Shown piece by piece: positions 1 to 4,457 of a DNA stretch of 4,457 nucleotides. Origin of the DNA: a virus. Its lineage: Duplodnaviria; Heunggongvirae; Uroviricota; Caudoviricetes. Below the pieces are notes generated by a model. It did not search any database. It saw nothing but the letters and a program-made list of their open reading frames with translations, and was not told where the DNA came from. Location of the stretch: IMG/VR virus record IMGVR_UViG_3300030444_000070. The stretch is one strand, 5' to 3'. The first letter of the stretch is position 1. Each line of letters begins with the position of its first letter. The position numbers and the translations under genes are program-made.

Positions 1-117
1 TACAAAACGCAATTGAAGAACGCGAGGCATCGTCTTAACGAGGCACCGAGGCGTCGCATTCTTCAGATGGTTCAACCCTTAAGTTAGCGCTTATGGGAAC
101 ACTCCCCGCCAGGTCTC

Positions 118-273
118 TTACCTTTCAGATTCGTAGGCTGTGAAGACAGTGACCTCCGTCTGGCCGGTTCGGATTCGTACCTCGCAGAGGTCTTTCCTCG
201 TTACCAGTGCCGTCACAATGACGGTTAAACAGATGACGATCAGAGCGATTAACATCGCTTTTTGCTGCTTCAT
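118..273 (-). CDS. hok: Hok/Gef-family type I toxin, 51 aa (MKQQKAMLIALIVICLTVIVTALVTRKDLCEVRIRTGQTEVTVFTAYESER)
   Basis: Own translation of the minus strand: ATG at 273..271, TAA at 120..118. The ORF is below the six-frame track size cutoff. SD-like CAAGGAGAAG lies 6 nt upstream of the ATG, as in R1 hok. The protein has the Hok/Gef hallmarks: single N-terminal TM helix, LVTRKDLCE motif, C-terminal FTAYE. It most resembles Gef/HokC and RelF/HokD from memory; the exact paralog is not assigned. Confidence 0.85.
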   Translation of the reverse strand: MKQQKAMLIALIVICLTVIVTALVTRKDLCEVRIRTGQTEVTVFTAYESER

Positions 274-331
274 AGCCTGCTTCTCCTTGACCTTTTGGTC
301 GGTAAGAGGCTAATCTACGTATGCTAAGCAT
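125..331 (-). CDS. mok: Mok-like overlapping reading frame (modulator of killing), 68 aa, coupling hok translation
   Basis: ORF-track frame 125..331 overlaps hok in a different frame and ends 7 nt before the hok stop, as mok does in hok/sok loci. GAGG lies 9 nt upstream of its ATG. The protein itself is low-complexity, which is typical for Mok. Confidence 0.5.
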   Translation of the reverse strand: MLSIRRLASYRPKGQGEAGYEAAKSDVNRSDRHLFNRHCDGTGNEERPLRGTNPNRPDGGHCLHSLRI

Positions 332-385
332 AGATATGGCCTCAGATTAATGTTAAGCGTCTTGCAGGACGCGTAATGTTATCTG
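321..385 (+). ncRNA. sok: Predicted Sok-like antisense RNA covering the mok translation initiation region
   Basis: Plus-strand promoter candidate TTGACC (287..292), 16-nt spacer, GCTAAT (309..314) inside the mok 5' end puts the start near 321. The transcript would be antisense to the mok SD and start codon. A GC hairpin GCGTC-TTGCAG-GACGC (357..372) followed by a U-rich tract gives a ~64-nt RNA. Boundaries are approximate. Confidence 0.35.
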
Positions 386-440
386 GGGCTTTCTTCTATC
401 TGCTTTTCGGGTCATGCCTGAAGCAGATAGCCTCAAGCAC

Positions 441-480
441 CCGCAACGATTGTATCAATGTCTGGCTTTTTTTCTATAGA
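441..480 (-). promoter_or_regulatory. Predicted hok mRNA promoter (extended -10 TGaTACAAT) and transcript start
   Basis: Minus strand reads CATTGATACAAT (rc of 449..460) with a TG extension. About 7 nt downstream the transcript would begin GGTGCTTGAGGCTATCTGC, which closely resembles the 5' end of R1 hok mRNA (GGCGCTTGAGGCTTTCTGCC, recalled from memory). A 10-bp inverted repeat CTATCTGCTT / AAGCAGATAG (396..405 and 421..430) would form a 5' leader hairpin. Confidence 0.35.
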
Positions 481-700
481 AATCACCTGGAAGGGTGAAT
501 ATCCACATCAGAAGAAATGTTGCAGCAAACATGATCCCTAATGGCCAGACCGCGCCAAAGAAAATCCATACTAAGATCTCCTCTGCTCGTTCTTTGCGGT
601 CGATATCGACAAGCATTTTTCGGCTGATCATGTATACACAGAAGCCAATACAAACATATCCTGCAAAAGCGATCGCTAACTGTAAAAAATCAGATTGCAT
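455..700 (-). CDS. Small membrane protein of unknown function, 81 aa, two predicted TM segments
   Basis: Track ORF 455..781. I prefer the internal ATG at 700..698 because GAGG lies 6 nt upstream; the 781 start has no SD and would overlap the repL stop. Two hydrophobic stretches (FLQLAIAFAGYVCIGFCVYMI and ILVWIFFGAVWPLGIMFAATFLLMWIF) are separated by a charged loop, and the C-terminus is basic. No family recognised. Confidence 0.5.
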   Translation of the reverse strand: MQSDFLQLAIAFAGYVCIGFCVYMISRKMLVDIDRKERAEEILVWIFFGAVWPLGIMFAATFLLMWIFTLPGDFYRKKARH

Positions 701-750
701 CTCCGACCTCAAACTGAAAACGCCAGGTGACTCCAGATTAGAGCAATCTA

Positions 751-1596
751 TCACCCCCTGAATCCTGCCGGTATACCCCATTTTTCGTTATCTTTATTTT
801 TGGCTAAAACCGCATTAAGAGCTTCGTTTACCGTCATGCAATGCGGTAGATTATCGAAGTTTGATATCCCGCCAATATCAGGCGAACGCTTGTTCTTCAG
901 GTAAGCATATTTCCGCGCAGCCGCCTCTACTTTCTGCTTGAACTCATGTTTTTGAGCGCGTTTTTTGGATAACCGCAGATTGTCAGCCTTTGCTTTTGCC
1001 TCAGCGATCCATGAAGTCAATTTTTTGAGTCTGGTCGTTCCGGCACCGCCGGAAACTGATCTTTTTGTTTTTTTAACTTGTGACTTCTTATTCTTTATTG
1101 CCACGTCATCCTGACAGGGGGAGGGGGTATCATTTTGACATGGGGGTGTGGATAAAAAATCAAATAAAGCCAATGTCTTAGCGAGAACAGCTTTAACCTT
1201 GGTTGCGGCTGAAGAGATCTTTAATTTGCTTTCAATCAGCGCGTTTTTAGCGTGTTGTGCGAAGGCCAAAAAGGATGGTGTAAACCGGTACAGGTTAGCG
1301 CGGCGTTCACGGTGATCGCCGATAACAATCTCTACCGACAGGATTCCTTTGTTTACAGCTTCACGGAATGCGCGAACGACGGTTGATTGGCTATAACCAG
1401 TTTCTGCCGCGATCATGCGGTGAGGCTTGTGAATGAAGTATTCACTGGTTGTTGCCGCGAGATTTGCACATTGCGACAGGATATGCCCGGCGCTACGGGA
1501 TAGACCGGAGTGTGTTACAAAGCAGGCCAATTCATAGCCAGAAAAAGTAAAATCGCTCATCGTTATACAGCTCAGGAAAGTGACTTTAGCCAGCAT
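751..1596 (-). CDS. repL: RepL-like lytic replication initiator, 281 aa, winged-HTH (RMIAAETGYSQSTVVRAFREAVNKGIL), lysine-rich C-terminal half
   Basis: Long ORF immediately downstream of kilA with a 29-bp gap. The order (operator, kilA, repL) and the size (281 aa, matching my recollection of P1 RepL) fit the P1 lytic replicon. HTH motif seen directly in the translation. The start could instead be the second Met at 1560; neither has a strong SD. Confidence 0.8.
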   Translation of the reverse strand: MLAKVTFLSCITMSDFTFSGYELACFVTHSGLSRSAGHILSQCANLAATTSEYFIHKPHRMIAAETGYSQSTVVRAFREAVNKGILSVEIVIGDHRERRANLYRFTPSFLAFAQHAKNALIESKLKISSAATKVKAVLAKTLALFDFLSTPPCQNDTPSPCQDDVAIKNKKSQVKKTKRSVSGGAGTTRLKKLTSWIAEAKAKADNLRLSKKRAQKHEFKQKVEAAARKYAYLKNKRSPDIGGISNFDNLPHCMTVNEALNAVLAKNKDNEKWGIPAGFRG

Positions 1597-1625
1597 TACA
1601 ATGCTGGTGGTTCTTACTACGTCTG

Positions 1626-2426
1626 TTAGCGCGTAGCCGCGACAGGTACCAGCACACCAGCATCAAGCAATCGCTTCATTAGCCACTGCTGACCTTTGCC
1701 GGTTATACGAGTCGTGAAAGAAATCCTGCTTCCGTTGCTTGTATCGATCACGGTTTCTTTGAGGGTGAAGTACCCACGGGATATGTATTCTTGTTTGGGG
1801 ACGTTCCTGCGTTCATCGGTTGCGATCAGAATTCCGTTATCACGCAACCAGGTGAAGAGATAGTTTTGGCCCAGGCCGAGCACTTTGGCATAGTTGCCGA
1901 TTAGAACCCCGCTGGCGGTAGCAACGCGTTCGGCGAATTCGACTTTAGGCGCATCCATAAGCATTTTTTGCTCCAGCCGTTGCTTTTGCTCTGCCAGGTC
2001 GGCAGCCAAACGGAGAGCTTCAGGGAGACTCTGCGGAATAGCAGGTTGCAATCTTCCGGCTCGATAGTCGATAAATGTCTGGTTTACCTTCAGCCGAAAC
2101 GCGGGAGAAATCCAGCCTGCGTACTCCACAGCGAGCAATTCATGGGCAAACGTACCGCCGCCACGGCCTTCGAACGAAACTATGCAATTCTGCATAGTTT
2201 CTTTTTCAAGCTCTTCGATGAGCTGTTTGGCTGACAGCGTTCTTAGCCATTGAGCTGGCGCTTTATGGGCACCGAGTCCGCTCGCTCTGTGTAGAGCATT
2301 AAGGTTGTAACGGCCAGCGCGGTCGGTCGTAATTTCAACACCACAAATAACAGGCAGAGTGGTTGAAGGATCGACATTTTGATGAAGGTTTGATATATTC
2401 ATATCCGCATTGAATGTTTGTTGCAT
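1626..2426 (-). CDS. kilA: KilA protein, 266 aa: N-terminal KilA-N DNA-binding domain plus C-terminal KilAC/ANT domain
   Basis: Track ORF with GGAG 7-8 nt upstream of the ATG. The N-terminus (VICGVEITTDRAGRYNLNALHRASG...APAQWLRT) looks like KilA-N. The C-terminal ~130 aa are clearly homologous to the C-terminus of the neighbouring ant product. The size agrees with my recollection of P1 KilA (266 aa). Confidence 0.85.
   Translation of the reverse strand: MQQTFNADMNISNLHQNVDPSTTLPVICGVEITTDRAGRYNLNALHRASGLGAHKAPAQWLRTLSAKQLIEELEKETMQNCIVSFEGRGGGTFAHELLAVEYAGWISPAFRLKVNQTFIDYRAGRLQPAIPQSLPEALRLAADLAEQKQRLEQKMLMDAPKVEFAERVATASGVLIGNYAKVLGLGQNYLFTWLRDNGILIATDERRNVPKQEYISRGYFTLKETVIDTSNGSRISFTTRITGKGQQWLMKRLLDAGVLVPVAATR
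2371..2399 (+). promoter_or_regulatory. Plus-strand antisense promoter (P53as-like): TCGACA, 17 nt, TGaTATATT
   Basis: -35 TCGACA at 2371..2376, 17-nt spacer, -10 TATATT at 2394..2399 with a TG extension at 2391..2392. It sits inside the first codons of kilA and points away from the gene toward the operator region. Confidence 0.45.
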
Positions 2427-2512: not shown

Positions 2513-2554
2513 TTTTTCTGACTCGATCCAGATCGGGTTGGTCGATCTGCTCAG

Positions 2555-2592
2555 AAACCTGCCAGTTTGCTGGCAGGTTTTTTCTTTTGTTA
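2555..2592 (+). terminator. Rho-independent terminator: stem CCTGCCAG / CTGGCAGG, loop TTTG, then TTTTTTCTTTTGT
   Basis: Perfect 8-bp stem (extendable by AAA/TTT pairs) with the T-tract on the plus strand. On the minus strand it is preceded by an A-tract and followed by GTTTCTGAG, so it may also act weakly after ant. The T-tract overlaps the ant stop codon. Confidence 0.6.
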
Positions 2593-3384
2593 ACCTATTG
2601 CTACTGGTTTTAACAAACCAGCATCAAGTAGCTTGCGAGTTAACCACTGCTGGCCTTTACCCGTTAATTGGGGCGTCAGCCGTATCTGGTAGCCATTTTC
2701 ATCATCCAGCACCACTTCTTTCACCGTGAAATACCCGGCGTTAATGTACTGCTGGCGCGGTACGTTTTTGCGCGCACCAAAAGCCATGAGAATGCCGTTC
2801 TGGCGCAACCATGAGAAAAGGGCGTTTTGCTTAAGTCCAACGACCTTTGCAAAGTTCCCGATCAGGATTCCATTAGCCGCTGATACCCGGTCGGCAAAAT
2901 CGACTTTAGGGGCTGCGGCCACCAGCTGTTGTTCCAACTGCATTTTCTGTTCTGCCAACTCGGCAGCCAGGCGTAGAGCGTCTGGTAATGTTTGGGGGAT
3001 CGATGGGGCAGGGGAGTTTGCCTGCTGCAATTCTTCCAGTTTGTCGATCAGCGAACGGCGGACTGCTTTTGACTCGCGCGCGGCGACTCGCAGGGCTTGT
3101 TTGTAGGTCATGGTTATGACAACCATAGGCGTACCGCCACCTGGCGGCACGGTTGCACTTTTTGTGTAACCGTCCTCACCTTCTAATTCGTCGAGTATTT
3201 TTTTGATGAATTTGTTGTTCCGAACCTCTGGTTCCCCACATAACTTACGCGCTTCATTGACCATCTTTAACAGCGTCTGGCTGTCGATTGTGTCTCCAGT
3301 GTTGGAGATAACATTCACAGCTGGTGATGGCGTAGCTGAAGCAACAGATGCTGGTTTTTTAACATTCAAATTATTACTGGTCAT
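2590..3384 (-). CDS. ant2: Antirepressor Ant2, 264 aa: in-frame internal initiation product of the same ORF
   Basis: In-frame ATG at 3384..3382 is preceded by a strong SD, AAGGAGG, with an 8-nt spacer. P1 ant is known to produce Ant1 and Ant2 from two in-frame starts (recalled). Whether both are used here is an inference. Confidence 0.45.
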   Translation of the reverse strand: MTSNNLNVKKPASVASATPSPAVNVISNTGDTIDSQTLLKMVNEARKLCGEPEVRNNKFIKKILDELEGEDGYTKSATVPPGGGTPMVVITMTYKQALRVAARESKAVRRSLIDKLEELQQANSPAPSIPQTLPDALRLAAELAEQKMQLEQQLVAAAPKVDFADRVSAANGILIGNFAKVVGLKQNALFSWLRQNGILMAFGARKNVPRQQYINAGYFTVKEVVLDDENGYQIRLTPQLTGKGQQWLTRKLLDAGLLKPVAIG

Positions 3385-3633
3385 TCTATGTGCCTCCTTT
3401 CTCATTTCTGCTGCCACCGTTGCGTAACGTAGACGTCCTTGTTCAATCAAATAATCCCTGATCTCGGCTATCAGTAGCCTGTTGATCACAGCCTTATCTG
3501 TTCGGGTATAAAAACGTCTGGTTATCATGAAATAGTTGGCAATTGCGCCGGGGATCTCCCGTGTCGGCATACAGGCAGTATGCAGGGCGATCGCTTCGGC
3601 TATGTCATTACGGGTGACGAGAGGTTTTTTCAT
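2590..3633 (-). CDS. ant1: Antirepressor Ant1, 347 aa, with C-terminal KilAC/ANT domain
   Basis: Track ORF. The ATG at 3633 overlaps the stop of the upstream icd-like ORF as ATGA, and AGGGGG lies 4 nt upstream. The C-terminal ~130 aa (LPDALRLAAELAEQK...GKGQQWL) are paralogous to the KilA C-terminus. The middle region loosely resembles Rha-like regulators. Confidence 0.8.
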   Translation of the reverse strand: MKKPLVTRNDIAEAIALHTACMPTREIPGAIANYFMITRRFYTRTDKAVINRLLIAEIRDYLIEQGRLRYATVAAEMRKEAHRMTSNNLNVKKPASVASATPSPAVNVISNTGDTIDSQTLLKMVNEARKLCGEPEVRNNKFIKKILDELEGEDGYTKSATVPPGGGTPMVVITMTYKQALRVAARESKAVRRSLIDKLEELQQANSPAPSIPQTLPDALRLAAELAEQKMQLEQQLVAAAPKVDFADRVSAANGILIGNFAKVVGLKQNALFSWLRQNGILMAFGARKNVPRQQYINAGYFTVKEVVLDDENGYQIRLTPQLTGKGQQWLTRKLLDAGLLKPVAIG

Positions 3634-3851: not shown

Positions 3852-3907
3852 AGTTACGGCCTCACAATCAGGTTTAACAACCTGCTACCCGCTGCTAAAC
3901 AGGTGGC

Positions 3908-3990
3908 AGGACGTGACGGGGTTAGCAGACTGGCGATTGTGAAACCAGCAGGCCGAAGCCTCCCCATCACGCCCCACCATAATTTGGGCG
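3908..3990 (-). ncRNA. c4: Predicted c4-like antisense repressor RNA
   Basis: On the minus strand, UCACAAUC (rc of 3935..3942) and CUGCUAAC (rc of 3922..3929) lie 6 nt apart. Each is complementary to two target pairs on the same transcript: upstream GUUUAGCAG (rc 4061..4069) and GAUUGUG (rc 4047..4053), and downstream GUUUAGCAG (rc 3892..3900) and GAUUGUGA (rc 3862..3869), the last overlapping the icd SD GUGAGG. Local hairpins place the first motif in a loop. The RNA ends are not determinable from sequence; boundaries are approximate. Confidence 0.35.
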
Positions 3991-4098
3991 TAACGCGGTT
4001 TTACGGACACAAAAATACCGCAATATCGGATATCTGCGGCTGTCCGCACAATCATTCAGGCTGCTAAACCCGGTCGCAGAATTTGCTACGACGGCGAA

Positions 4099-4127
4099 AC
4101 TATAAGCCTGAACGATTAAAAGGTCAA
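4099..4127 (-). promoter_or_regulatory. Sigma70 promoter for the c4-icd-ant operon (P51-like): TTGACC, 17 nt, TATAGT
   Basis: Minus strand: -35 TTGACC (rc of 4122..4127), exact 17-nt spacer, -10 TATAGT (rc of 4099..4104). Predicted start near 4092, upstream of both upstream target motifs. Confidence 0.5.
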
Positions 4128-4165: not shown

Positions 4166-4182
4166 AAATTTATTAGAGCAGA
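4166..4182 (-). promoter_or_regulatory. C1-type repressor operator (Op51-like) upstream of the immunity-I operon promoter
   Basis: Minus-strand 17-mer TCTGCTCTAATAAATTT matches the recalled P1 C1 operator consensus at 15/17. It is nearly identical to the 2496..2512 copy, and the flanks are also conserved (~27/33 over 2483..2515 versus 4153..4185). Confidence 0.5.
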
Positions 4183-4457
4183 TTAGTGTCGTGCAATAGA
4201 TATATTATTTGTGATGAAAAATAATGCAGAGGGATATTGTAACTTTAAGATGGATATCAATAGTCGATACATAAATTAAGTTAGCAATAAACTATTAACT
4301 TAAGAAATAATGCAGATGGTGAACTTGTCTCTGACTTTTCAGCTATACACAATAAGTTAGGGATAGCTTATAAAGGTAATGACTCCAACTTATTGATAGT
4401 GTTTTATGTTCAGATAATGCCCGATGACCTTGTCATGCAGCTCCACCGATTTTGAGA

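What the first reader, a model, noticed from the sequence alone, without database searches (positions are those of the whole stretch)
1590..1607. Inverted repeat CCAGCATT-AC-AATGCTGG spanning the repL start codon
Two 8-bp arms are separated by 2 bp, with the repL ATG (1596..1594) in the right half. In the mRNA this could form a 6-bp hairpin sequestering the start codon, and no SD is evident for repL. This suggests translational control or coupling to kilA, or a protein-binding site.
Basis: seen in the sequence. Interest (0 to 1): 0.35.

Follow-up and report, generated by a model that had tools for sequence, protein, structure and literature searches.

The report
Conserved RNA hairpin before P1 repL
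A small stem-loop in the messenger RNA just ahead of phage P1's lytic replication gene repL is real and is kept, with a different sequence, in distant relatives. It probably fine-tunes how much replication protein is made, so it is a modest regulatory detail rather than a new kind of system.

Summary
The 8-2-8 inverted repeat at 1590-1607 is real and identical in phage P1. The window is a P1-like immI and lytic-replicon segment, with its genes on the minus strand.

In the kilA-repL mRNA the repeat folds into a 7-bp stem with a UGUA loop (-9.8 kcal/mol). The stem buries the first in-frame AUG (1596..1594), which has no Shine-Dalgarno (SD) sequence.

On its own the hairpin is only marginally unusual: p is about 0.02 for this leader, and similar hairpins occur about once per kb in P1. 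The comparative evidence is stronger:
- repL genes about 48% identical, which sit behind an unrelated upstream gene, carry a hairpin of different sequence with a 4-nt loop at the same place.
- In a gap-free alignment, 5 of 7 pairs are changed on both sides and 103 of 105 cells are paired.
- All G.U pairs fit the sense strand only.
- The P1-group leader is about four times less variable than synonymous sites.

In those relatives, however, the hairpin holds no start codon in most variants. Frame-breaking indels, and in some an in-frame stop, separate it from repL. Only the second ATG (1560..1558, already listed as an alternate start in GenBank X15638) is shared.

Best reading: a selected sense-strand RNA stem-loop in the repL leader that tunes RepL synthesis after transcription. 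It is not the origin, a terminator or a repeated protein site. The mechanism is unproven.

The parts
1590..1607 (-). Stem-loop of the repL leader. The 5' arm is 1607..1601 (CCAGCAU), the loop is 1600..1597 (UGUA) and the 3' arm is 1596..1590 (AUGCUGG).
   Evidence: Position-equivalent hairpins occur in distant repL loci.
1594..1596 (-). ATG1, the first in-frame ATG of the 281-codon repL ORF. It lies inside the 3' arm, has no SD, and is one of the two alternate starts in GenBank X15638.
   Evidence: It is used as the start in AF234172 and by PGAP.
1558..1560 (-). ATG2 ('ATGAGC', Met-Ser), the only start codon shared by all RepL lineages. It is probably the conserved RepL start and would give a 269-aa product.
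   Evidence: It is chosen as the start in MH422554 and in vB_EcoM-813R1.
1571..1573 (-). Weak SD-like GAG, 10 nt upstream of ATG2. The B lineages have GGGU at the corresponding place.
   Evidence: the anti-SD duplex is -1.9 kcal/mol in P1 and -3.6 to -3.7 kcal/mol in B. No other AUG in the P1 and B1 leaders scores better.
1577..1581 (-). ACUUU motif, which begins 9 nt after the stem. The same offset is seen in P1, B1 (ACUUU/GCUUU) and B2 (ACGUU/GCGUU).
   Evidence: Its function is unknown.
1614..1628 (-). The kilA stop TAA (1628..1626), followed in frame by CAG ACG TAG TAA. That makes three in-frame stops in the 18-nt spacer before the stem.
   Evidence: Read directly. The kilA ORF is listed.
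751..1596 (-). The repL ORF, which encodes the lytic replication initiator. oriL lies in its 3' half; the 13-mer-like GATCTTTTTGTTT is at 1058-1070 (+).
   Evidence: and PMC9948254.
1626..2426 (-). kilA, the upstream cistron, with KilA-N and KilAC/ANT domains. It is transcribed with repL from P53 under the C1 operator at 2496-2512.

Best explanation
The inverted repeat is the DNA image of a selected, sense-strand RNA stem-loop in the leader of repL. It lies between the stop codon of the upstream cistron (kilA in P1) and the conserved RepL start, ATG2 at 1560..1558, 29 nt downstream of the stem.

It most likely acts after transcription to keep RepL synthesis low and defined. In P1 it buries the SD-less upstream in-frame AUG1. 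In the relatives it sits on or within about 8 nt downstream of the first start-like codon after the upstream stop. Ribosomes would therefore not start de novo in the leader, and RepL would be made from the weak-SD, U-rich, unstructured ATG2 site.

Shown: the structure exists, it is conserved with compensatory changes, it fits one strand only, and the leader is under purifying selection.

Inferred: that the effect is on translation initiation, and in which direction it acts.
For: 1. The fold is stable and local. The 26-nt segment folds at -9.8 kcal/mol with z = -3.2. In the ensemble of a 126-nt context, AUG1 is at least 90% paired while the GAG and ATG2 region is mostly open.

2. Distant repL loci (about 48% amino-acid identity) carry hairpins of different sequence at the same place: 7-8 nt after the upstream stop and 30-35 nt before ATGAGC.
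   - B1: GUCCCUGCC-CUAU-GGCAGGGGC.
   - B2: GCCCCUGGC-ACUU-GUCAGGGGC, plus variants.
   - Energies run from -13.7 to -20.2 kcal/mol with z down to -5.1.
   - The upstream gene in these loci is unrelated to kilA, so the hairpin travels with repL.

3. Pair counts.
   - Within B, 97% of cells are paired, 6 of 9 pairs vary, and RNAalifold finds the same helix on its own.
   - In a gap-free alignment of P1 with B, 103 of 105 cells are paired. Five of 7 pairs are changed on both sides between P1 and B. Slid controls give 30-59% paired.

4. Strand specificity. All 11 non-Watson-Crick paired cells are G.U on the sense strand, which would be A.C mismatches on the other strand; only 2 cells are mismatches. 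The antisense fold of variant L183 is much weaker, -9.9 against -13.7 kcal/mol.

5. Purifying selection. The P1-group leader has 4 variable sites in 62 nt across 68 haplotypes, against 27% at synonymous third positions (P = 5e-5). Two of the three stem variants keep pairing as U.G.

6. ATG2 is the only shared start. Four B2 variants (L009, L093, L173, L174) have an in-frame TGA 18 nt upstream of it. Indels of 5 nt and 1 nt break any common leader frame. Amino-acid conservation starts at F18.

7. A role in the origin is excluded. The target that RepL acts on in trans is the AT2 region in the 3' half of repL, and truncations that keep only that region still work (PMC9948254). Half-sites of the repeat do not recur in repL.

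8. The same paper reports that high RepL activity may be cytotoxic (section heading). This fits a need for low expression.
Against: - No experiment bears on this hairpin. I found no mention of it in the P1 annotation, in Rfam or in the papers searched.
- Only two to three independent lineages are available.
- Homology of the leader between P1 and B rests on synteny and structure alone. BLASTN alignments start inside repL. MAFFT offsets the P1 stem by one column. A covariance model built from B scores the P1 leader at only 6.4 bits, E = 4.4.
- The hairpin does not overlap the ATG2 ribosome-binding site in any lineage, so direct occlusion of the real start is not the mechanism.
- Only in P1 is a start codon that opens the annotated repL frame buried in the stem. 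Some B variants have an out-of-frame AUG in the loop or 3' arm.
- Use of ATG1 in P1 cannot be excluded. Both variants between ATG1 and ATG2 fall on third codon positions of the ATG1 frame.
- Within the P1 group, 3 of the 4 leader variants hit the stem, and one (L019) breaks a pair.
- The D6/Pantoea RepL lineage has no equivalent hairpin.
Confidence: 0.45

Rival explanations
1. The hairpin is an intercistronic mRNA processing or stability element. It would act as a barrier to 3' exonucleases, or as a guide for RNase E cleavage in the U-rich tail downstream. This would separate the fates of the upstream (kilA) and repL parts of the P53 transcript and so set their ratio.
For: - The hairpin always lies just after the upstream stop codon and travels with repL behind unrelated upstream genes.
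- It is absent where repL has its own terminator and presumed promoter, as in D6 and Pantoea.
- A conserved ACNUU motif sits 9 nt after the stem.
- In a delta-hfq host, kilA was under-induced while repL was transiently over-induced (bioRxiv 10.64898/2025.12.28.696737). This hints that the two parts of the operon can differ in abundance.
Against: - No transcript ends have been mapped here.
- The stems are short (7-9 bp), and the P1 stem is weak for an exonuclease barrier (-9.8 kcal/mol).
- The RNase E idea rests on a 5-nt motif and my own recollection of its consensus.
- The hfq data concern whole genes and are indirect.
Confidence: 0.2
2. The repeat is a double-stranded DNA palindrome bound by a dimeric protein. 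One candidate is RepL itself, which has a winged-helix/MarR-like region and could bind here as an autoregulatory operator. Dyad symmetry would then be kept as the protein co-evolves.
For: - The arms are perfect 8-nt repeats with a 2-bp spacer.
- RepL has weak HTH_36 and MarR_2 matches.
- Dyad symmetry that is retained with a changed sequence, as in P1 against B, is also what a co-evolving operator would show.
Against: - The sequence occurs once in the 97-kb genome.
- Half-sites do not recur in repL or oriL beyond chance, in either P1 or B1.
- RepL's trans-acting target is the AT2 region about 500 nt away.
- The B variants accumulate G.U pairs, up to 2 of 8 in L183 and L184. These keep the RNA stem but break DNA symmetry, and they all fall on the same strand.
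- The site is not a C1 operator. The only matches to the operator consensus are at 2496-2512 and 4166-4182.
- It lies inside a transcription unit, far from P53.
Confidence: 0.08
3. The hairpin is a transcriptional attenuator or pause hairpin. It would act either as a leaky intrinsic terminator on the sense strand that lowers read-through into repL and oriL, or as the terminator of an antisense transcript on the + strand.
For: - The B stems are GC-rich, 9 bp long, and followed by CUUU.
- The lenient scan flags the + strand version in P1 as terminator-like, with the tail GGTTCTTACT.
Against: - There is no U-tract on the sense strand in P1 (CUAAAGUC).
- The B hairpins are not called terminator-like on either strand.
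- No promoter-like site that could drive an antisense RNA was found in the regions scanned.
- The wobble pattern disfavours the antisense strand.
- Transcription from P53 through repL is needed for replication (introduction of PMC9948254).
Confidence: 0.07
4. The hairpin has no function. It would be a chance hairpin, or a relic of a module junction, that is retained by descent.
For: - Comparable perfect hairpins occur about 1.1 per kb in P1.
- The single-leader p value is only about 0.02.
- The covariance model does not link P1 and B.
- Within the P1 group the stem takes 3 of the 4 leader variants.
Against: - Two lineages share only 2 of 7 bases in each arm, yet both keep 7 of 7 Watson-Crick pairs at the same offset from the downstream motif. 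If the arms had drifted independently, the chance of this is about (1/4)^5 to (3/8)^5 (my own arithmetic).
- Pairing within B is 97% despite 6 variable pairs.
- The leader is far less variable than synonymous sites (P = 5e-5).
Confidence: 0.1

Closest known systems
Start-codon or translation-initiation-region hairpins, such as the MS2/R17 replicase operator hairpin (from my own knowledge, not tested here)
   Same: It is a short stem of about 7 bp with a 4-nt loop. In P1 an AUG forms the first bases of the 3' arm. It sits at the head of a replication gene that follows another cistron.
   Different: No binding protein is known. The buried AUG1 is probably not the conserved start. In the relatives the stem does not hold the start codon of the conserved repL frame. 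The ribosome-binding site of the conserved start, ATG2, is 29-35 nt downstream and unstructured.
Leader-peptide translational coupling of plasmid rep genes: IncFII tap-repA with CopA, and IncI-alpha/IncB repY-repZ with Inc RNA (from my own knowledge)
   Same: It is a structured leader in front of a replication initiator. In four B2 variants a 20-codon ORF runs through the hairpin and ends in TGA overlapping the repL ATG (ATGA). In L009 and L093 this ORF opens with ATG overlapping the upstream stop (UAAUG); in L173 and L174 the corresponding codon is ATT.
   Different: The leader frame is not conserved: there are 5-nt and 1-nt indels, and in P1 and B1 the leader is in frame with repL. The hairpin does not sequester the repL ribosome-binding site. 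I found no pseudoknot partner on reading the sequences. No antisense promoter or RNA was found.
Intercistronic stem-loops that set differential mRNA stability in operons, such as REP elements in malEFG and the papBA processing site (from my own knowledge)
   Same: It lies just after the stop codon of the upstream cistron in a polycistronic transcript. It is absent where repL is not intercistronic.
   Different: It is a single short hairpin, not a repeated REP family (it is unique in the genome). No processing data exist for it.
Intrinsic (Rho-independent) terminators, for example the one at window 2553-2582 (+)
   Same: Both are stem-loops with a 4-nt loop.
   Different: There is no U-tract after the sense-strand stem. 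The hairpin is not flagged in the B lineages. The genuine terminator in the same window has a 13-bp stem followed by a T-run.

Membership tests
Intrinsic terminator | A GC-rich stem-loop followed at once by a U-rich tract on the transcribed strand | tested here: not met
   The sense-strand tail is CUAAAGUC in P1. The scan flags only the + strand in P1, under a lenient rule. It flags neither strand in B1 or B2.
Hairpin that sequesters the start codon (translational operator) | The functional start codon or its SD lies inside the stem | tested here: inconclusive
   AUG1 is in the 3' arm in P1. Whether AUG1 is functional is unknown, since there are two alternate starts. The shared start, ATG2, and its weak SD lie outside the stem in every lineage.
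Hairpin that sequesters the start codon (translational operator) | The feature is conserved in homologous loci | tested here: not met
   The hairpin is conserved, but a start codon in the stem is not. L009, L174, L183 and L184 have no ATG in the hairpin. The loop ATG in L007 and L173 is out of frame with repL.
Hairpin that sequesters the start codon (translational operator) | A specific RNA-binding repressor protein | not testable with these tools
   No candidate protein is known. Testing needs binding assays.
Leader-peptide-coupled rep translation (IncFII tap, IncI/IncB repY) | A short leader ORF whose stop overlaps or abuts the rep start, conserved across relatives | tested here: not met
   It is present in L009, L093, L173 and L174. 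The frame is shifted by a 1-nt indel in L182 and L184 and by 5 nt in B1. In P1 and B1 the leader is in frame with repL.
Leader-peptide-coupled rep translation (IncFII tap, IncI/IncB repY) | An antisense RNA that targets the leader structure | tested here: not met
   There is no Rfam hit at the site. No promoter-like site was found on either strand near it. Absence of evidence only.
Phage P1 C1 operator | A match to the asymmetric 17-mer ATTGCTCTAATAAATTT | tested here: not met
   The only matches are at 2496-2512 and 4166-4182.
Iteron or operator set of a replication initiator | The site or its half-site recurs at the origin or elsewhere in the replicon | tested here: not met
   The 18-mer is unique in 97 kb. 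No half-sites with up to 1 mismatch occur in P1 repL, and the count in B1 is at the chance level. The oriL target is the AT2 region.
Programmed -1 frameshift or read-through stimulator | A slippery heptamer or leaky stop 5-9 nt upstream of the structure | tested here: not met
   On direct reading there is no X XXY YYZ motif in the last codons of kilA or of the B upstream ORF. The kilA stop is followed by two further in-frame stops.
Any curated RNA family (Rfam 15) | A match to a covariance model | tested here: not met
   With an E-value cut-off of 1, the only hits in the window are sok, C4, c4-a1b1, isrK and noise. Nothing falls at 1540-1640.

The most novel reading that the evidence does not exclude
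The stem-loop is the core of a previously undescribed cis-regulatory leader that belongs to RepL-type lytic replication initiators and moves with repL between operons. Under this reading it gates RepL synthesis on translation of the upstream cistron or of a short leader ORF. It would be a protein-free and antisense-free counterpart of the tap/repY coupling devices of IncFII and IncI plasmids. It would thereby set the size and timing of the replication burst when a P1-like phage-plasmid is induced.
Probability: 0.15. Interest if true: 0.5.

Novelty: new member of a known kind. Interest (0 to 1): 0.3.

Why it matters
RepL and oriL drive P1 lytic replication. They are also used in PAC/P1 vectors, phagemids and copy-number amplifiers, and several synthetic-biology constructs keep the native kilA-repL junction as 'the RBS' (PMC9948254).

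Two facts would help in designing and interpreting such constructs, and in annotating the hundreds of P1-like plasmids that carry resistance genes. First, the junction holds a selected RNA hairpin. Second, the conserved RepL start is probably the second ATG, not the annotated first one. Scientifically this is a small regulatory refinement of a well-studied operon, not a new principle.

Tried and rejected
1. Conservation within P1-like elements. The phage, plasmid and IMG/VR relatives (about 500 plasmids and about 100 viral contigs) are more than 95% identical here. Simple conservation is therefore uninformative; only diversity statistics could be used.

2. Scans of genome and metagenome contigs added few new lineages. 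A second profile search added only more B variants.

3. A covariance model built from the B leaders did not recover the P1 leader. Nothing was found with default filters, and the leader scored 6.4 bits, E = 4.4, with filters off.

4. MAFFT would not place the P1 and B stems in one register. The cross-lineage pair table therefore comes from a gap-free alignment that I made by hand.

5. The idea that the leader encodes a conserved peptide ('[VS]TF'). Differences between B1 and B2 looked biased to third codon positions, but the 5-nt and 1-nt indels and the in-frame stop argue against a common frame. It remains open for P1 alone.

6. A long-range alternative fold that pairs the 5' arm with ATG2. 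It appears in one minimum-free-energy prediction, but the 111-nt region is no more stable than shuffles (z = -0.13) and the centroid keeps the local hairpin.

7. A pseudoknot between the loop and the ATG2 region. No complementarity was seen on reading P1, B1 or B2.

8. Frameshift or read-through signal. There is no slippery site, and there are triple in-frame stops.

9. Promoter. No sigma-70-like site was found.

10. Origin or iteron role. Rejected.

11. The D6/Pantoea lineage. It has a different gene context and no equivalent hairpin.

12. Literature. Lobocka 2004, Heinrich 1995 and Sheth 2017 are not held in the library. The PHROGs and NCBIfam searches did not help decide the start codon.

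Full report
CONTEXT. The window is a P1-like phage-plasmid segment. It is 96-98% identical to P1, P7 and many IncY plasmids. Its genes lie on the minus strand: ant1/ant2 (3633..2590), kilA (2426..1626) and repL (1596..751). C1 operators Op53 and Op51 are at 2496-2512 and 4166-4182, and the C4 antisense RNA is at 3899-3984. kilA and repL form the lytic replicon, which is transcribed from P53 (annotation of AF234172; PMC9948254).

THE OBSERVATION. CCAGCATT-AC-AATGCTGG occupies 1590-1607 with perfect 8-nt arms and is identical in P1.
- On the mRNA strand it is CCAGCAU-UGUA-AUGCUGG, a 7-bp stem with a 4-nt loop. It folds at -9.8 kcal/mol with z = -3.2.
- The first in-frame ATG of the long repL ORF (1596..1594) forms the first three bases of the 3' arm.
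- That ATG has no SD: the anti-SD duplex is -1.2 kcal/mol.
- As a single-sequence observation it is only marginal. Comparable perfect hairpins occur about 1.1 per kb in a P1-type genome, and leader shuffles give p = 0.021.
- The 18-mer is unique in that 97-kb genome.

WHICH ATG IS 'THE' repL START?
- GenBank X15638 lists two alternate repL CDSs, which start at this ATG and at an ATG 36 nt downstream (window 1560..1558).
- AF234172 and PGAP use the first. The annotators of MH422554 and vB_EcoM-813R1 use the second.
- RepL homologues about 48% identical align only from F18 onward, and D6 RepL aligns only from residue 20.
- Four variants of sub-lineage B2 have an in-frame TGA 18 nt upstream of the 'ATGAGC' start, so RepL cannot begin further upstream there.
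- Between sub-lineages the leader carries 5-nt and 1-nt indels.
- ATG2 is therefore the only start common to the family. It also has the best, though still weak, SD-like element: -1.9 kcal/mol in P1 and -3.6 to -3.7 in B.
- For P1 itself ATG1 cannot be excluded. The two polymorphisms between ATG1 and ATG2 both fall on third positions of the ATG1 frame.

THE COMPARATIVE RESULT.
- All P1-group leaders are nearly invariant.
- A second lineage (B) is found on Enterobacter and Vibrio conjugative plasmids and in metagenomic contigs. There repL follows an icd-like gene and a 77-82-aa ORF that is unrelated to KilA.
- In every B locus a hairpin with a 4-nt loop starts 7-8 nt after the upstream stop and ends 30-35 nt before ATGAGC. 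B1 has GUCCCUGCC-CUAU-GGCAGGGGC. B2 has GCCCCUGGC-ACUU-GUCAGGGGC, with variants CCCUGCU-UCAU-GGCAGGG, CCCCUGCC-CUAC-GGCGGGGG, CCCCUGUC-CUAU-GGCGGGGG and CCCCUGCC-CUUU-GGUGGGGG.
- These fold at -13.7 to -20.2 kcal/mol.
- Within B, 97% of cells pair and 6 of 9 pairs vary. RNAalifold predicts the same helix.
- In a gap-free alignment, the downstream ACNUU motif starts 9 nt after the stem in all lineages. There the P1 and B stems coincide: 103 of 105 cells pair, 5 of 7 pairs differ on both sides between P1 and B, and slid controls give 30-59%.
- All 11 non-Watson-Crick paired cells are G.U on the sense strand, and only 2 cells are mismatches. The antisense fold of a two-wobble variant is much weaker.
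- The P1-group leader has 4 variable sites in 62 nt across 68 haplotypes, against 27% at synonymous third positions (P = 5e-5). Of the three stem variants, two keep pairing as U.G (-7.5 and -7.8 kcal/mol) and one breaks a pair (-3.6 kcal/mol).

LIMITS OF THAT EVIDENCE.
- Only two to three independent lineages exist in the collections searched.
- BLASTN does not align the leaders of P1 and B.
- MAFFT offsets the P1 stem by one column.
- A covariance model built from B gives the P1 leader only 6.4 bits, E = 4.4.
- Equivalence therefore rests on synteny, structure and one short motif.
- The D6/Pantoea lineage lacks an equivalent hairpin. In it repL follows a head-protease gene, a strong terminator and presumably its own promoter.

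WHAT IT IS NOT.
- It is not the origin. The site on which RepL acts in trans is the AT2 region in the 3' half of repL, and a truncation that keeps only AT2 works (PMC9948254). The 13-mer-like GATCTTTTTGTTT is at 1058-1070.
- It is not an iteron or operator set. It is unique in the genome and its half-sites do not recur.
- It is not a C1 operator.
- It is not a canonical terminator. There is no sense-strand U-tract, B is not flagged on either strand, and only a lenient + strand call is made in P1.
- It is not in Rfam.
- It is not a frameshift or read-through signal. There is no slippery heptamer, and the kilA stop is followed by two more in-frame stops.
- No promoter-like site lies nearby.

MOST LIKELY MECHANISM (inferred). 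I read the repeat as a sense-strand RNA stem-loop that belongs to the repL leader and tunes RepL synthesis after transcription.
- In P1 it buries the SD-less AUG1.
- In B1 the first AUG after the upstream stop abuts the stem, and its G is the first stem base. In B2 the AUG, AUU or UUG after the stop lies 5-8 nt upstream of the stem. In each case the stem would fall within the span I take a 30S subunit to cover downstream of a start codon.
- The stem would thus suppress de novo initiation in the leader. That leaves the unstructured, U-rich, weak-SD ATG2 site as the RepL start.
- This fits a need for low, defined RepL levels, since high RepL activity is reported as possibly cytotoxic.
- Ribosome-mediated melting from the upstream stop is geometrically possible in B, where the stem starts 7-8 nt after the stop. 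It is not possible in P1, where the gap is 18 nt. Classical coupling to kilA is therefore not the conserved feature.

RIVALS. I give the broad claim, a selected RNA hairpin acting on repL expression after transcription, about 0.45, and the specific initiation-gating mechanism less. The rivals are:
- an mRNA processing or stability element (0.2). A weak hint is the opposite behaviour of kilA and repL transcript levels in a delta-hfq host;
- a DNA operator (0.08);
- an attenuator or pause site (0.07);
- no function (0.1).

NOVELTY AND INTEREST. The hairpin is not annotated in the very detailed P1 record, not in Rfam, and not mentioned in the papers I could read. The ambiguity of the start codon is old knowledge. 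Leader or intercistronic hairpins that tune translation or stability are a common kind of element, so this is a new member of a known kind. Its practical relevance is for repL annotation and for repL-based vectors. Interest 0.3.

Noticed in passing
window 100-454, minus strand: A hok/mok/sok-type toxin-antitoxin module. The Rfam sok hit covers 268-442 (113.9 bits). A 51-aa Hok-like ORF lies at 273..118. The stretch is 87-94% identical to mokW/hok regions of Stx and lambdoid phages. It replaces the rlfA/rlfB region that follows repL in reference P1, whose match starts only at window 737.
   Followed up: partly
window 2553-2582, + strand: A 13-bp stem-loop with a T-run, a strong intrinsic terminator on the strand opposite to kilA. 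It sits about 180 nt downstream of the position equivalent to the P53as (PaskilA) start, so it is probably the terminator of the known kilA antisense RNA.
   Followed up: partly
window 1614-1628, minus strand: The kilA stop TAA is followed in frame by CAG ACG TAG TAA, giving three in-frame stops within 15 nt. This 13-nt stretch is absent from the B-lineage leaders.
   Followed up: no
window 3899-3984, 4053-4105 and 4011-4092, minus strand: The C4 antisense RNA, its a1/b1 target sites, and an overlapping isrK-like hit below threshold. This is the immI region as in P1.
   Followed up: no
window 4375-4457: The last 83 nt are 96-99% identical to IS1 transposase regions of unrelated phages. The P1-like sequence is interrupted by, or ends in, an IS1 copy.
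   Followed up: no
L009 2144-2206 (also L093, L173, L174): In B2 loci a 20-codon ORF runs through the hairpin and ends in TGA overlapping the repL ATG (ATGA). In L009 and L093 it opens with ATG overlapping the upstream stop (UAAUG, preceded by GGAG); in L173 and L174 the corresponding codon is ATT. The frame is lost in L182 and L184 (a 1-nt indel) and in B1 (a 5-nt indel).
   Followed up: partly
L009 1893-2138 (the ORF upstream of repL in lineage B2): The 82-aa ORF upstream of repL has a weak Tad2-like (Thoeris anti-defence 2) Pfam match, E = 0.001 at 20 bits, below the 25-bit cut-off. The operon is icd-like gene, this ORF, then repL. In L009, L175 and L182-L184 a zeta-toxin-like gene lies downstream of repL.
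   Followed up: no
L184 about 1180-1290: In one Enterobacter contig the B-type repL carries an in-frame TAG, so only a 157-aa C-terminal product is called. Its leader hairpin has two adjacent G.U pairs. This may be a decaying copy.
   Followed up: no
window 751-781: A 108-aa ORF with a hydrophobic sequence (781..455) starts 31 nt before the repL stop. It is not present downstream of repL in reference P1.
   Followed up: no
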